A DNA stretch of 64,000 nucleotides, taken from positions 59,644,001-59,708,000 of the forward strand of contig OZ024743.1 in assembly GCA_964016885.1 (NCBI GenBank), in the 5' to 3' direction. Below, piece by piece: positions 2,044 through 40,814 of the stretch (positions are counted from its first letter, which is position 1; each line of letters begins with the position of its first letter). This DNA is from Eledone cirrhosa (lineage: Eukaryota). The notes beneath the pieces were generated by a model, which ran no database searches, was not told the origin of the DNA, and saw only the letters and a list, made by a program, of their open reading frames with translations. The translations under genes and the position numbers were made by a program.

Positions 2044-2240
2044 CAACACACACACATACACACACACACACGCACGCACACACACACACACACACACACA
2101 CACACACACACACACACACACACACGCACGCACGCACGCACGCACGCACACACACACACACACACACACGCACACACACATACACACACACACACACACG
2201 CATATATATATATATATATATATATATATATATATATATA
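2044..2240. repeat. Compound (CA)n/(CACG)n/(AT)n microsatellite
   Basis: Read directly. Source of several spurious ORFs. Confidence 0.95.
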
Positions 2241-3277
2241 TAAGTATGTATACGTACATACATATATGTATACAGACGTACAGTAGTATGTATATATATA
2301 TACATACATGCACACACATATATATATGTACGTATGGATTCACCGAACATTTATTACAATGCTCGGTGTGTTTGTAAACAAACATCCCGAATTAAGCCGT
2401 ACAGTGTCTAACAACCATCGTTGCTCATTTATTCAACACTGACAATGGAACGCTGTACTAGTTTCAAGCTTATTGGCTATCGTCAGCAACGTATACCTTC
2501 CTGCCAGATGGTTGAACGTCTGAATGTATGAACTTTCCTTATGCATATTAACGGCTGAGCAGTCTAAGTTGCATATCGAGTGAGTTAGTCGGCCGGGGTA
2601 CCGAAAACGATAAACGGAAAAAATGAAACAAAATTTCATTTCTCAATCTTAGTACGGCTGTTACTTAAATATAAGTATGTATACGTACATACATATATGT
2701 ATACAGACGTACAGTAGTATGTATATATATATATACATACATGAACACATATATATATGTACGTATGGATTCACCGAACACTTATTACAATGCTCGGTGT
2801 GTTTGTAAACAAACATCCCGAATTAAGCCGTACAGTGTCTAGCAACCATCGTTGCTTAATTGTTCAACACTGACAAAGGAACGCTGTACTAGTTCCAAGC
2901 TTATTAGCTATCGTCAGAAACGTATACCTTCCTGCCAGATGGTTCAACGTCTGAAAGTAAAAACTTTCCTTATGCATATTAACGGCTGAGCAGCCTAATT
3001 TGCATGTCGAGTGAGTTAATCAGTCGCGGTACCGATGGTTGCTAGACACCGTACGGCTTAATTCGGGATGTTTGTTTACAAACACACCGAGCATTATAAT
3101 AAATGTTCGGTGAATCCATACGTACATATATATATATATATATGTGCATGTATGTATATATATATACATACTACTGTACATCTGTATACATATATATATG
3201 TACGTATACATACTTATATTTAAGTAACAGCCGTACTAAGAGTGAGAAATGAAATTTCGTTTCATTTTTTTCCGTTT
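2240..3277 (-). mobile_element. Non-autonomous PLE-type insert: ~430-bp tandem unit x2 plus inverted partial unit, flanked by (AT)n
   Basis: 2240-2669 is repeated at 2670-~3030. 3034-3277 is the reverse complement of part of the unit. Each tandem unit has a hammerhead motif. Confidence 0.75.
2450..2492 (-). ncRNA. Minimal type-I hammerhead ribozyme motif
   Basis: Minus strand ACGTTG-CTGACGA-TAGCcaataaGCTT-GAAA-CTAG-TA-CAGCGT: 6-bp stem I with one G-U pair, palindromic stem III, GUA triplet. The second copy (2881-2923) has GAAA>GGAA. Confidence 0.7.
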
Positions 3278-3888
3278 ATATATATATATATATATATATA
3301 TATATATATATATATATATAATCATTGTCTTTGGTGAGGTTACACTGCATGTACACATGTGTGTGTGTGGGTGGGGGTGTCCATATATGTGTCTACCATT
3401 TCAAGTTGTGCTGAGACCATAATTATGACATTGTCTTTAAATATTTACGTGCAGTTTGGTGTTTACGATTTGTATTAATTATTGAATATTTCATGTAGTC
3501 TGAATTTTCTAATTAAACTAATTTCAGAATGAATTATTCAACTATTTCAATTTTCTAAATTTATCTAATTATTGACTAGTTTTATAAGAATTTCATTAAT
3601 TTCGATTTATCGACTTTGCTAATATCTCTTGATTTTAATGAAATCCTCCTGAGTTATATTATATTGATAATCATATATTACAAATATGTATCTGCACGTA
3701 TTTTGCGAGATCTGAAAATGTGACATTGTATATTTTATAATCATTGATTTTAAATCCTATTGTTTATGGGATAAAGTTATTTATGAATAAATATATATTA
3801 TTGGCAATATATATATATATATATATATATATATATATATATATATATATATATATATATATATATATATATATATATATATATATAT

Positions 3889-4417
3889 AAGTGTTAAACA
3901 AGTTTCAATGAATACATCAAAGAATGAGTTTTGTAAAGATTGGAAGCACTCAACAGCCAATGTTTTCCAGAGTTATTTATATTAATTCAAAATAGTAACA
4001 AAATAGTTATTCTTGTGATCAATTATATTTTATTATACATATTTCAGAGTTAAGTTCAACAGTACGTCCTCATCAGATAAAATAAAATGATACATGACAT
4101 ACCCTGACATAGTAGATGGTTAAGATTCAATCAAGGTAGTGATTAACTTATGACAACACTCAATAGTTATACCCTAATATTGAGAACATGAGATAACATA
4201 ATTAATACAAACAATAGAGAGGGTGCGTATAATAGATTTTAAGAAATACATGACATCAATATAACAATTATAAATTAGAACTGGTATGTCATGTATCATT
4301 TTATTTTATCTGATGAGGACGTACTGTTGAACTTAACTCAGTACCTCTGAAATATGTATAATAACATATAATTGATCACAAGTATATCTATTTTGATAAT
4401 ATTTTGAATTAATATAC
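3889..4417. mobile_element. Non-autonomous PLE-type insert with inverted arms (about 3980-4103 / 4283-4415) between (AT)n tracts
   Basis: ggtatgtcatgtatcattttattttatctgatgaggacgtactgttgaacttaactc occurs on both strands. The left arm has an extra tail containing GTTGAGTGC (3946-3954, minus). Confidence 0.75.
4302..4368 (+). ncRNA. Type-I hammerhead motif (mirror copy 4026-4084, minus)
   Basis: TATTTTAT-CTGATGA-GGACGTACTG..CAGTACCTCT-GAAA-TATGTA-TA-ATAA(A/C)ATA. Stem I is perfect in the minus copy and stem II is better preserved in the plus copy. Confidence 0.65.
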
Positions 4418-38024: not shown

Positions 38025-38634
38025 TATTAGAAATGTTAGCTATCGCCGTATTTTGACTAAAGAAATTAAAGAAATTATTTAGCCTGATAGTGGGGTTAAG
38101 AACCCTCGGAGAAATGGAAAAAGATGAGTATTGACGTACATGGGAGTCGAACCCACATCTTTGGTTATCCGGACCACAGTGCTACCTTTTGCACCAACAC
38201 TTCACCCGTCTTTTGCCATTCAAATTAGAAGCTATAAACTTAGCGACTCTAATGTCAAGTAAGAATATTTTCGAAACAGTGAGTGGATTTGAAATTATTA
38301 AAAATGTTAGCTATCGCCGTATTTTAACTAAAGAAATTAAAGAAATTATTTAGCGTGATTACGTACATGGGAGTCGAACCCACATCTTTGGTTATCCGGA
38401 CCACTGTGCTACCATTTACACCAACACATCACCCGTCTTTTTACATTCAAATTAGAAGCTATAAACCTAGCGACTCGCATGTACGTCAATACTCATCTTT
38501 TTCCATTTCTCCGAGAGTTCTTAACCCCACTATCAGGCTAAATAATTTCTTTAATTCTTTAGTTAAAATACGGCGATAGCTAACATTTCTAATAATTTCA
38601 AATCCACTCGCTGTCTCGAAAATATTTTTACTTG
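38025..38634 (-). mobile_element. tRNA-like-containing tandem + inverted insert in (AT)n
   Basis: A ~270-bp unit is repeated (38025-38294, then to 38478 with a deletion). 38479-38634 is an inverted partial unit. Confidence 0.8.
38133..38203 (-). tRNA. tRNA-like sequence (pseudo-tRNA / SINE-type head); second copy 38360-38430
   Basis: gaagtgt-TGGTGCAAAAGG-tagcactg-TGGT-ccggata-ACCA-aagat-GTGGG-TTCGACT-CCCAT-gtacgtc: A box, B box/T-arm, weak acceptor stem, TTTTT about 10 nt downstream. The anticodon loop is non-canonical. Confidence 0.55.
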
Positions 38635-39635
38635 ATATATATATATATATATATATATATATATGTACACATATATATATATATATATATATATATATAT
38701 ATATATATATATATACATACATATTGTATATATATATATATATATATATATATATATATATATATACACACACATATATATATATACATACATACATATT
38801 GTATATATATATATATATATATATATATATATATATATATATATATATATATATATATATATATATAAATATATACATACATACAGTTCTTAGCCATTTT
38901 TAATTCCTTTCTGGCGGGGATCATTTAAGATAAATCTTCTTCCAAGTGAGTTTGTTTCCTGATGATTTCGAAACTCGTGAATTTATCCTTGATCAGATAT
39001 TTCCAAAATGCGAATGAAAACTCATAGGGTAGAAACATAATTTTGGTATGCTTATATACATTTTTTCTTATAACTTTGATTTTATACCTAAGTGAGTATG
39101 GTTGACGATATATTTAATTGATTTCCACGTGCTATTAGAAATGGTGGGTTAATATTCTATAGTTGTTAATCGCGAATAGATAGCTGTGGTTTATTTATCT
39201 ATTATTTCTTCATAAGTGCCTTTTAATATTATAGCCTTGTTTAATTGTTTTTTTATGTGGATGATCATGGTGATTGGGAGAAGAGTTGGTGTATATATTT
39301 TATCAAATGATTCCATGGACATACTTTATTGTATATATATATATATATATATATATATATATATATATATATAAATACACACACACACACATTATATATA
39401 TATATATATATATATATATATATATATATATATATATATATATATTTACACAACTATATTACACAAATAGAAGTGTGTTACACAGTGAAATGTGTGTAAA
39501 CGATTATTACAAGTGATTTTTACCGTTACTGTATAGAAAACAATATCTACCGCTTTAGCAATTAAATAGAAAAAACCTAAGTCAGAATCAAATCACTGAA
39601 GTAGAGTTTTAAATTACTAACCTTATAACTATCAG

Positions 39636-39710
39636 TTTGCTGATATGAATTAAGTTCGTTTCGCCACAGAAATGTGCAGTTTAACAGCCACAGGTTCATC
39701 AGTCAGCAAA
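39636..39710 (-). ncRNA. Type-I hammerhead motif inside an insert with ~60-bp direct terminal repeats (39459-39518 / 39871-39931)
   Basis: TTTGCTGA-CTGATGA-..-GAAA-cGAActtaaTTCa-TA-TCAGCAAA: perfect 8-bp stem I, degenerate stem II. Confidence 0.65.
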
Positions 39711-40814
39711 TGTTGATTCTGTTTACTACACATATAGCCTCATGGATAGAGAGAAAGCCAATATACACGCTGCCCAGGGTAGAGCGAAATCACGTGTTAT
39801 TTGCATCAAATAACGGTTATCATGGATTGGGAGAAAATGCTAGAGAGAAAAAGCCCAACCGTTCAAATTTATTACACGAATTGAAGTGTGTTACACAGTG
39901 AAATGTGTGTAAAGGATTATTACAAATGATTGTTACACAAACACATAACACACACACACACACACACACACACATATATATATATATATATATATATATA
40001 TATATATATATATATATGTATATATATATATATATATATGTATGTATATATATATATATATATATATATATATATATATATATATATATATATATATATA
40101 TATATATATATATATATATATATATATATATATATATATATATATATATATATATATATATATGTATATATATATATATATATATATGTATGTATATATA
40201 TATATATATATATATATATATATATATATATATATATATATATATATATATATATATATATATATATATATACACACACACACATATATATATATATATA
40301 TATATATATATATATATATATATATATATATATATATATATATGTATATATATATATATATATATATATATGTATATATATATATATATATATATATATA
40401 TGTATATATATATATATATATATATATGTATATATATATATATATGTATGTATATCTATATATATATATATATATATATATATATATTTCGTTTCTGAAT
40501 TTGTTTAGCAAGATTCTTTATCTATATATATATATATATATATATAGATATATAGATATATATGATTTGGGTAACCTGGGAAACTGACTATATATATATG
40601 TATATATATATACTATATATGCATACATATATGACTATATGTATATATATATATTTATACATATATATATATATATATATATATATATATATATATATAT
40701 ATATATATATATATGTATATCTCTATATATATATGTATATATATATATATATATATATATATATATATATATATATATATATATATATATATATATATAT
40801 ATATATATATATAT

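What the first reader, a model, noticed from the sequence alone, without database searches (positions are those of the whole stretch)
2240..39940. Community of non-coding hammerhead-ribozyme mini-elements living inside (AT)n microsatellites
Seen: at least ten mutually dissimilar inserts of 0.15-3 kb are bounded by or adjoin (AT)n (2240, 3889, 9848, 13183, 20342, 28848, 30002, 32836, 35744, 39459). All are palindromes, inverted arms or tandem units. Each has a CUGANGA/GAAA/NUH motif (intact, decayed or truncated), usually with a palindromic stem III (CTAG, GTAC, CAATTG, CACGTG, CAAGGCCTTG). Known: PLE pseudo-LTRs carry minimal type-I hammerheads thought to act as dimers, and retrozymes are non-autonomous hammerhead retroelements. 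Inference: this is a diverse (AT)n-targeted set of non-autonomous elements or solo pLTRs mobilised by PLE RT/GIY-YIG. It may produce self-cleaved monomer, circular or hairpin RNAs.
Basis: partly seen in the sequence, partly recalled or inferred. Interest (0 to 1): 0.85.

Follow-up and report, generated by a model that had tools for sequence, protein, structure and literature searches.

The report
Penelope retrotransposon ends and hitchhiking retrozymes
The hammerhead-bearing inserts are real: seven of ten are the cut-short ends of protein-coding Penelope-like retrotransposons that sit in (AT)n repeats, and three are small non-coding repeat units carrying the same insertion footprints, so they were likely pasted in by the Penelope enzymes.

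Summary
All ten inserts adjoin (AT)n and carry type I hammerhead (HHR) motifs: 8 strict hits in the window against 0.03 per shuffle. 247 of 277 genome copies end at an AT run, against 6% of random positions. Seven inserts (B-G, I) trace to the 3' end of coding Penelope-like elements (PLEs): five with Hydra-type endonucleases, two with a CX2-5CxxC linker, and one with an intact 775-aa ORF. A, H and J share the PLE footprints: AT target, head-to-head arms and two discrete 3' ends. Exactly one arm carries the 'tail' in 37 of 46 ORF-less pairs and 95 of 102 PLE pairs. Insertion by PLE enzymes is inferred. Cleavage, expression and circular RNA are untested. These are new members of known kinds; the new part is footprint evidence that retrozymes are inserted by PLE machinery.

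The parts
2243..3276 (.). A: ORF-less 429-431 bp unit, about 1.9 copies on the minus strand plus a head-to-head short arm bearing the tail
2456..2486 (-). A hammerhead, intact core, CTAG stem III, U.U at base of stem II (second copy at 2887-2917 has a changed GAAA box)
3890..4417 (.). B: head-to-head 3' ends of a PLE with a Hydra-type endonuclease; HHR at 4310-4360 (+), and at 4034-4076 (-) with a stem II deletion
6101..9652 (+). P1: 5'-truncated coding Hydra-type PLE between (AT)n runs, one frameshift; HHR with C at position 4 at 9571-9610
9849..12825 (.). C: head-to-head 3' UTRs of a Hydra-type PLE (internal 445-460 bp repeats); HHR at 12626-12670 (+) with one stem III change
13134..13576 (.). 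D: near-perfect palindrome of the 3' end of a young PLE (copies 99% identical); HHRs at 13312-13340 (-) and 13424-13452 (+); tail on the left arm only
13744..14786 (.).
19186..20314 (.). M (not listed): nested inverted pieces of an ORF-less 543 bp unit, split by an AT/CA run; this copy lacks the HHR that other copies carry
20342..21930 (-). E: single-arm 3' UTR of a Hydra-type PLE, including about 1 kb of (TA/CA)n-rich tract; HHR at 20434-20472
21940..22128 (-). 3'-end fragment of P1 with its HHR (21982-22020), between AT runs
22336..22492 (.). head-to-head 3'-end fragment of P2, tail on one arm
22715..22797 (+). fragment of E with its HHR (22738-22776)
25462..28121 (-). P2: 5'-truncated coding Hydra-type PLE; HHR at 25511-25560
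28847..29381 (.). F: head-to-head 3' ends of a PLE with a CX4CxxC linker; HHR core boxes at 29151-29194 with an extra U after A9, stems I and III uncertain
30003..30318 (.). G: fold-back 3' end of a rare Hydra-type PLE; only the 3' half of the HHR (30153-30164)
32858..33676 (.). H: ORF-less 321 bp unit in tandem plus an inverted arm; HHR with U3-A8 core at 33152-33189 and 33473-33510 (both window copies carry changes)
35744..36158 (.). I: head-to-head 3' ends of a Hydra-type PLE; HHR at 36015-36100 with long stem II and CAATTG stem III
39446..39936 (-). J: part of an ORF-less 544 bp unit plus a short inverted piece; HHR at 39644-39702 (one stem III change)
40815..42132 (-).

Best explanation
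The region is a nest of (AT)n-associated insertions: seven of the ten inserts are 5'-truncated 3' ends of coding Penelope-like elements, and three are ORF-less tandem hammerhead units that were likely inserted in trans by the same enzymes. Shown: family structure, ORF links, closure of the small units, AT adjacency, two discrete 3' ends, and one tail per head-to-head pair. Inferred: the GIY-YIG endonuclease nicks both strands of an (AT)n tract, and each nick primes the RT at one of two neighbouring start sites on the element RNA. The two cDNAs stop early and join head to head, so one arm ends at the body end and the other carries a 35-165 nt tail. Inferred: the ORF-less units are transcribed as multimers, may be cut by their hammerheads (through dimer pairing of the palindromic stem III in A and H) and circularised, and are copied for more than one unit length. 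Inferred: long (TA/CA)n tracts inside some elements add new targets, which builds nests.
For: ORF links. D: same-strand ORF upstream in 6 of 30 loci, and an intact 775-aa RT plus GIY-YIG ORF in L131. C: 7 of 30 loci, with 2.5 kb continuous to the HHR. I: 8 of 30. F: 9 of 30 share at least 1.48 kb upstream that encodes RT and endonuclease. G: L195, L197, L302. E: ORF directly follows the pLTR in L133 and precedes the UTR in L298. B: endonuclease end on the inverted partner in L305 and L306. Closure: direct repeats of unit length in 24 of 30 A, 16 of 30 H and 8 of 30 J loci; no PLE protein match in any monomer. AT at the 3' end in 247 of 277 copies, against 918 of 14797 random positions and 12 of 78 SINE ends. 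One tail per head-to-head pair: 95 of 102 PLE pairs and 37 of 46 A/H/J pairs, where independence allows at most 50%. The tailed arm was the longer in 26 pairs and the shorter in 26. PMC11167929 shows in vitro cleavage and extension of both strands and two RT start sites bounding the tail.
Against: No autonomous partner with a homologous 3' end was found for A, H, J, K or M among the 15 family references compared. 5' truncations do not pile up at the HHR cut site (21 within 5 nt, about 17 expected from the surrounding 200 nt), so cleaved linear RNA left no trace as template. [quoted passage not shown] Li et al. saw cleavage in only 1 of 9 frog retrozyme dimers. The B link rests on two loci. Loci were the best-scoring 20-30 copies per family, not a random sample.
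Confidence: 0.85

Rival explanations
1. All ten inserts are independent non-coding hammerhead mini-elements.
For: In the window none of the ten carries an ORF and all look self-contained between AT runs.
Against: Seven continue into PLE ORFs elsewhere. Two coding PLEs in the window have their own 3' fragments nearby.
Confidence: 0.03
2. All ten are truncation products; A, H and J are only locally duplicated pLTRs or satellites amplified by DNA-level recombination.
For: Li et al. propose that retrozymes arise from pLTRs and expand locally. My samples are limited to 30 copies per family.
Against: A, H and J are dispersed over many contigs at 92-96% identity. Their 3' end runs back into their own start with a fixed period, and they show the one-tail footprint at separate loci. 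No shared same-strand ORF was seen in 90 loci; the one H hit (L220) is not shared with other copies.
Confidence: 0.07
3. The head-to-head structures come from fold-back self-priming (or an antisense template) followed by endonuclease trimming, not from priming on both target strands.
For: 66 of 119 one-tail pairs are symmetric palindromes with under 25 nt of spacer. PMC3846280 favours self-priming and PMC8557442 attributes the tail to endonuclease resolution.
Against: Simple fold-back predicts that the tail goes with the longer (or the shorter) arm; the split is 26 to 26. In vitro data map the tail between two RT start sites.
Confidence: 0.25
4. The ORF-less units are mobilised by a LINE (RTE, CR1 and similar) rather than by PLEs.
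For: LINE ORFs are common in the window and loci. PMC7229834 leaves LINEs open as partners.
Against: The tRNA-derived SINE in the same loci abuts AT at only 12 of 78 3' ends. The two-end tail and outward-facing duplicate arms match the PLE families here.
Confidence: 0.05

Closest known systems
Hydra-clade PLEs (Craig et al. 2021, PMC8557442; includes Hydra-1_Obim with (TA)n preference)
   Same: DKT in C and E; RWK in C and RWR in E; CxCX5C linker in E, G, I, N, P1, P2; canonical-type HHR near the 3' end; (TA)n insertion.
   Different: At least eight divergent families in one 40 kb stretch (endonuclease identity 28-45%); the supplement rows found list one cephalopod Hydra family. B and E have long UTRs. 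No tree with reference sequences was built.
Neptune/Nematis-type C-terminal endonuclease PLEs
   Same: D has DKG, a CX4CxxC linker and an intact RT plus GIY-YIG ORF; F has a CX4CxxC linker.
   Different: Clade not fixed by phylogeny.
Metazoan non-LTR retrozymes (Cervera and de la Pena 2020, PMC7229834; Li et al. 2026, 10.64898/2026.07.22.740005)
   Same: Short ORF-less tandem units with one type I HHR per unit, GC 33-40%, co-occurring with PLEs.
   Different: Mostly dispersed 1-3-mers in (AT)n with PLE tails and inverted arms. J, K and M are longer than the 170-400 nt of the 2020 paper, though within the 51-972 bp of Li et al. No homologous autonomous pLTR was found. Expression and cleavage are untested.
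Minimal PLE hammerheads (Cervera and de la Pena 2014, PMC4209133)
   Same: Long stem II, extra base after A9, palindromic stem III, U3-A8 covariant core, and pairs of HHRs on opposite strands 100-700 bp apart were all described there.
   Different: A mismatch at the base of stem II is common here (U.U in A, D, E, K, N; A.C in J and M). Family-wide U9 (I) and A4 (N) cores were not found in the passages I read.
Non-autonomous Chlamys elements such as MRC1 (PMC8557442)
   Same: Non-autonomous PLE partners forming pLTRs and head-to-tail multimers.
   Different: Those resemble their autonomous partner at the 3' end and most Chlamys lack canonical HHRs; A, H and J carry HHRs and matched no partner here.

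Membership tests
Penelope-like element (B-G, I, N, P1, P2) | single ORF with RT and C-terminal GIY-YIG endonuclease | tested here: met
   D: Pfam GIY-YIG above cut-off and RVT_1 at E 3e-6, just under cut-off, in one 775-aa ORF. Others by motifs and similarity only; Pfam found nothing for E, P1, P2.
Penelope-like element (B-G, I, N, P1, P2) | pseudo-LTR: the 3' end repeated in front of the ORF | tested here: met
   Seen for C (L307) and E (L133); not looked for in every family.
Penelope-like element (B-G, I, N, P1, P2) | type I hammerhead near the 3' end | tested here: met
   the fold of F is uncertain.
Penelope-like element (B-G, I, N, P1, P2) | inverted 5'-truncated partner and optional tail | tested here: met
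   95 of 102 outward-facing pairs have one tail (B, C, D, F, I, N, P2).
Hydra clade | DKT, RWK, CxCX5C linker, no CCHH, (TA)n target | tested here: met
   against the list. Full set seen for E (RWR for RWK). C shows DKT and RWK, with the linker not read. G, I, N, P1, P2 show linker and endonuclease. B by endonuclease identity only.
Hydra clade | placement in an RT phylogeny with reference Hydra elements | not tested
   No reference sequences were fetched.
Non-LTR retrozyme (A, H, J, K, M) | short tandem unit with a type I HHR in each unit | tested here: met
   Single loci with two or three HHR cut sites one unit apart: L023, L217, L272, window K, L397; periods.
Non-LTR retrozyme (A, H, J, K, M) | no protein-coding capacity | tested here: met
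   Longest stop-to-stop frame 39-107 aa on the doubled unit; no PLE tblastn hit at E 0.01.
Non-LTR retrozyme (A, H, J, K, M) | highly self-paired monomer | tested here: inconclusive
   Circular fold z-scores: A -5.7, H -5.1, J -6.8, K -2.4, M -1.0 (15-30 shuffles each).
Non-LTR retrozyme (A, H, J, K, M) | self-cleavage | not testable with these tools
   Needs transcription assays.
Non-LTR retrozyme (A, H, J, K, M) | expression as linear and circular monomer RNA | not testable with these tools
   Needs RNA data from this organism.
Non-LTR retrozyme (A, H, J, K, M) | pLTR homology to an autonomous PLE (Li et al. 2026) | tested here: inconclusive
   No match among 15 family references at word size 7; most PLE families in the genome were not sampled.

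The most novel reading that the evidence does not exclude
PLE integration is a two-site, two-strand reaction: each nicked strand of an (AT)n target primes at a different one of two RNA start sites, which fixes exactly one tail per insertion. ORF-less retrozymes keep their own two-site signal with no sequence likeness to any autonomous partner found, so PLE enzymes recognise an RNA shape. In this genome dozens of PLE and retrozyme families share one microsatellite niche and spread it themselves by carrying (TA)n tracts.
Probability: 0.4. Interest if true: 0.65.

Novelty: new member of a known kind. Interest (0 to 1): 0.42.

Why it matters
Which enzyme moves animal retrozymes was left open in 2020 (LINEs or PLEs) and argued in 2026 from co-occurrence and pLTR phylogeny. 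Here three ORF-less units carry the PLE integration footprint itself, with mapped start sites. A young intact PLE (L131) offers a ready enzyme for an in vitro trans-mobilisation test. The one-tail count turns a qualitative remark in the PLE literature into a number that separates mechanisms. For annotation, short palindromes between AT runs in such genomes are PLE ends, not MITEs or microRNA hairpins.

Tried and rejected
Rfam cmscan: no hammerhead in the 150 rows listed of 261; hits were miRNA models on AT repeats. RF00163 in the genome: 18 matches among 74 scored candidates, all shown from a different canonical HHR family absent from the window. Pfam missed the Hydra-type ORFs; the Atlas gave unnamed eukaryotic clusters with HTH_animal and some RVT_1. 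Pile-up of 5' truncations at the HHR cut site: none; sharp peaks at other offsets are artefacts of masked AT runs. Partner search for the ORF-less units: no match. My first guess that the F motif was an inversion junction was wrong, since it is continuous in other copies. The first I search returned mostly palindromic copies and 0 of 30 linked ORFs; a query 5' of the HHR fixed that. Family A tail counts were swamped by low-complexity matches and were redone with a unique anchor. The 5'-side AT count for K is not trusted (AT-rich stretch inside the unit). Sequencing runs for A: no RNA holder listed; no reads were laid, so expression is open. Earlier findings of this scan: none returned.
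Full report
Setting. The window lies at G000:C4:59644001-59708000 in a 3.0 Gb assembly. From the contig sizes, the AT-microsatellite load and a tRNA-derived SINE I take it to be an octopus-like cephalopod. That rests on recall and was not tested.

Observation. All ten abut (AT)n and are unrelated to each other in self-BLAST. 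A type I hammerhead descriptor, tuned after I had seen the motifs, finds 8 strict hits against 0.03 per shuffle, and 10 against 0.08 with core variants (100 shuffles). Alignments of 30 genome copies per family and core counts show intact majority cores for A, B, C, D, E and J. H has a U3-A8 core (22 of 22 readable copies among 30). I has U at position 9 (19 of 19 readable among 30). F has both boxes, but its stems I and III do not fit well. G's full motif is in L195 and L197. Across families the core is kept while the stems differ completely and still pair. Rfam listed no hammerhead in the rows shown.

Seven inserts are ends of coding PLEs. D copies are 99% identical; 6 of 30 have a same-strand PLE ORF upstream, and L131 holds an intact 775-aa ORF with GIY-YIG and RVT_1 matches. 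C has an upstream ORF in 7 of 30 loci and 2.5 kb of continuous 90% identity from ORF end to HHR. F extends at least 1.48 kb in 9 of 30 loci into RT and endonuclease coding sequence. G links in L195, L197 and L302. I links in 8 of 30 loci. E is followed directly by a 632-aa frame in L133 and preceded by that ORF's end in L298, across other insertions. B shows no ORF within 1.5 kb on its own strand in 30 loci, but its inverted partner carries the endonuclease end in L305 and L306; this is the weakest link. The window itself holds two coding PLEs between microsatellite runs (P1, P2), each with a detached 3' fragment nearby. N (13744-14786) is one more, with an upstream ORF in 7 of 20 loci. Motifs match the Hydra definition in PMC8557442 (section 11 read) for C, E, G, I, N, P1, P2 and, by endonuclease identity, B. 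D and F have the CX2-5CxxC linker of Neptune/Nematis type.

Three inserts, and two more nearby, are closed ORF-less units. Direct repeats of unit length occur in 24 of 30 A loci (mostly 425-438 bp), 16 of 30 H (309-333) and 8 of 30 J (544-549), in 11 of 25 K (about 730) and in 6 of 18 non-window M loci (511-545). The 3' end runs back into the start of the same unit. Monomers from cut site to cut site have no frame over 107 aa, no PLE protein match and GC of 33-40%; as circles they fold with z of -5.7 (A), -5.1 (H), -6.8 (J), -2.4 (K) and -1.0 (M). No autonomous family among 15 references shares their sequence.

Target and footprint. 247 of 277 copies across the ten families end within about 10 nt of an AT run of 10 nt or more. 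The controls are 918 of 14797 random positions in the same loci and 12 of 78 SINE 3' ends (AT runs were masked in the alignments, and A, B and H have short internal AT stretches near their ends). Eight of ten families show two discrete 3' ends 35-165 nt apart. An inverted family piece sits at the 5' junction in 21 of 30 D, 25 of 30 H, 24 of 30 B, 13 of 30 J, 12 of 30 F and 8 of 30 I loci. Counting only pairs with both ends at AT and inside the fetched locus, exactly one arm has the full tail in 95 of 102 PLE pairs, 14 of 18 H and 10 of 11 J pairs and 13 of 17 A pairs. Independence allows at most half (p 4e-21 for PLE pairs, 2e-5 for A/H/J). Among 119 one-tail pairs (A not included), 66 were symmetric, 26 had the tail on the longer arm, 26 on the shorter, and 1 was unassigned. 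K and M gave no such pairs, so their assignment to PLE enzymes rests on AT adjacency and the HHR only.

Mechanism. Shown: structure, links, closure and footprints. Inferred: PLE endonuclease nicks both strands of (AT)n, each strand primes at one of two RNA start sites, and the cDNAs join head to head. PMC11167929 (parts 1-2 of 4 read) shows both strands cut and extended and two start sites bounding the tail. It also reports no strand difference in start site and no need for HHR cleavage. Self-priming on an antisense template was proposed in PMC3846280 (passages) and remains a rival. 5' truncations do not cluster at the HHR cut site, so templates were likely uncleaved multimers or circles.

Comparison. 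HHRs in pLTRs, palindromic stem III, an extra base after A9, U3-A8 cores and opposite-strand pairs are in PMC4209133 (parts 1-2 of 4; two of three supplement files searched). Inverted truncated partners, a tail at one end, (TA)n bias and non-autonomous partners are in PMC8557442 (passages, section 11 and supplement rows), which lists one octopus Hydra family with (TA)n preference. Non-LTR retrozymes are in PMC7229834 (passages and discussion); its supplement could not be read and may list cephalopod cases. The PLE origin of retrozymes is argued in 10.64898/2026.07.22.740005 (parts 1-3 of 5; supplements closed). A 2026 octopus repeat annotation has no mention of ribozyme or retrozyme in its main text (PMC13282606, part 1 and term search). 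PMC3088659 passages cover core variants in general and U4C. Seven literature searches listed no paper whose title or abstract start describes cephalopod retrozymes or counts tails in retrozyme insertions; the library lacks most subscription papers.

Verdict. The feature is real and is a mixture. Most of it is ordinary PLE debris of known kinds; a minority are retrozyme-like non-autonomous units. New member of a known kind, interest 0.42, raised by the footprint evidence and the testable enzyme-template pairs.

Noticed in passing
window 20966-21930; L298; L195: The long (TA/CA)n block next to E is part of the element's own 3' UTR (82% identical over 1.6 kb to L298), and G's UTR also carries such a tract. 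PLEs may spread their own targets; L298 has other insertions inside this tract.
   Followed up: partly
window 12626-12670, 4310-4360, 25511-25560: In B, C and P2 the palindromic stem III is itself an (AT)n-like octamer.
   Followed up: no
window 14631-14671 and 36015-36100: Family-wide unusual cores: A at position 4 in N (15 of 15 readable copies among 20) and U at position 9 in I; activity unknown.
   Followed up: partly
window 22599-22620 and 28753-28800; L298 about 4100: Further CUGAUGA boxes in related AT-flanked fragments that were not assigned to a family.
   Followed up: no
L001-L010: A separate, abundant family with a canonical Rfam RF00163 hammerhead, often in inverted pairs next to (AT)n.
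   Followed up: no
L339 (minus strand, about 4552 from its end): Another complete type I hammerhead in the 10 kb before the window.
   Followed up: no
window 37973-38634: Nested inverted repeat between AT runs holding two tRNA-like matches (38132-38203, 38359-38430; Rfam 39 and 33 bits).
   Followed up: no
window 56890-58812 and 60284-61982: Two more PLE remnants outside the finding, the second an inverted pair with a GIY-YIG match.
   Followed up: partly
L133-L134 (G000:C2:16670000-16686500): An 8.5 kb tandem duplication holding an E-family PLE and a nearly intact RTE-like LINE.
   Followed up: no
window 1449-1626, 5457-5647, 22933-23117, 30861-31045, 56608-56733: Five copies of a tRNA-derived SINE, used as the control for AT adjacency.
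   Followed up: partly
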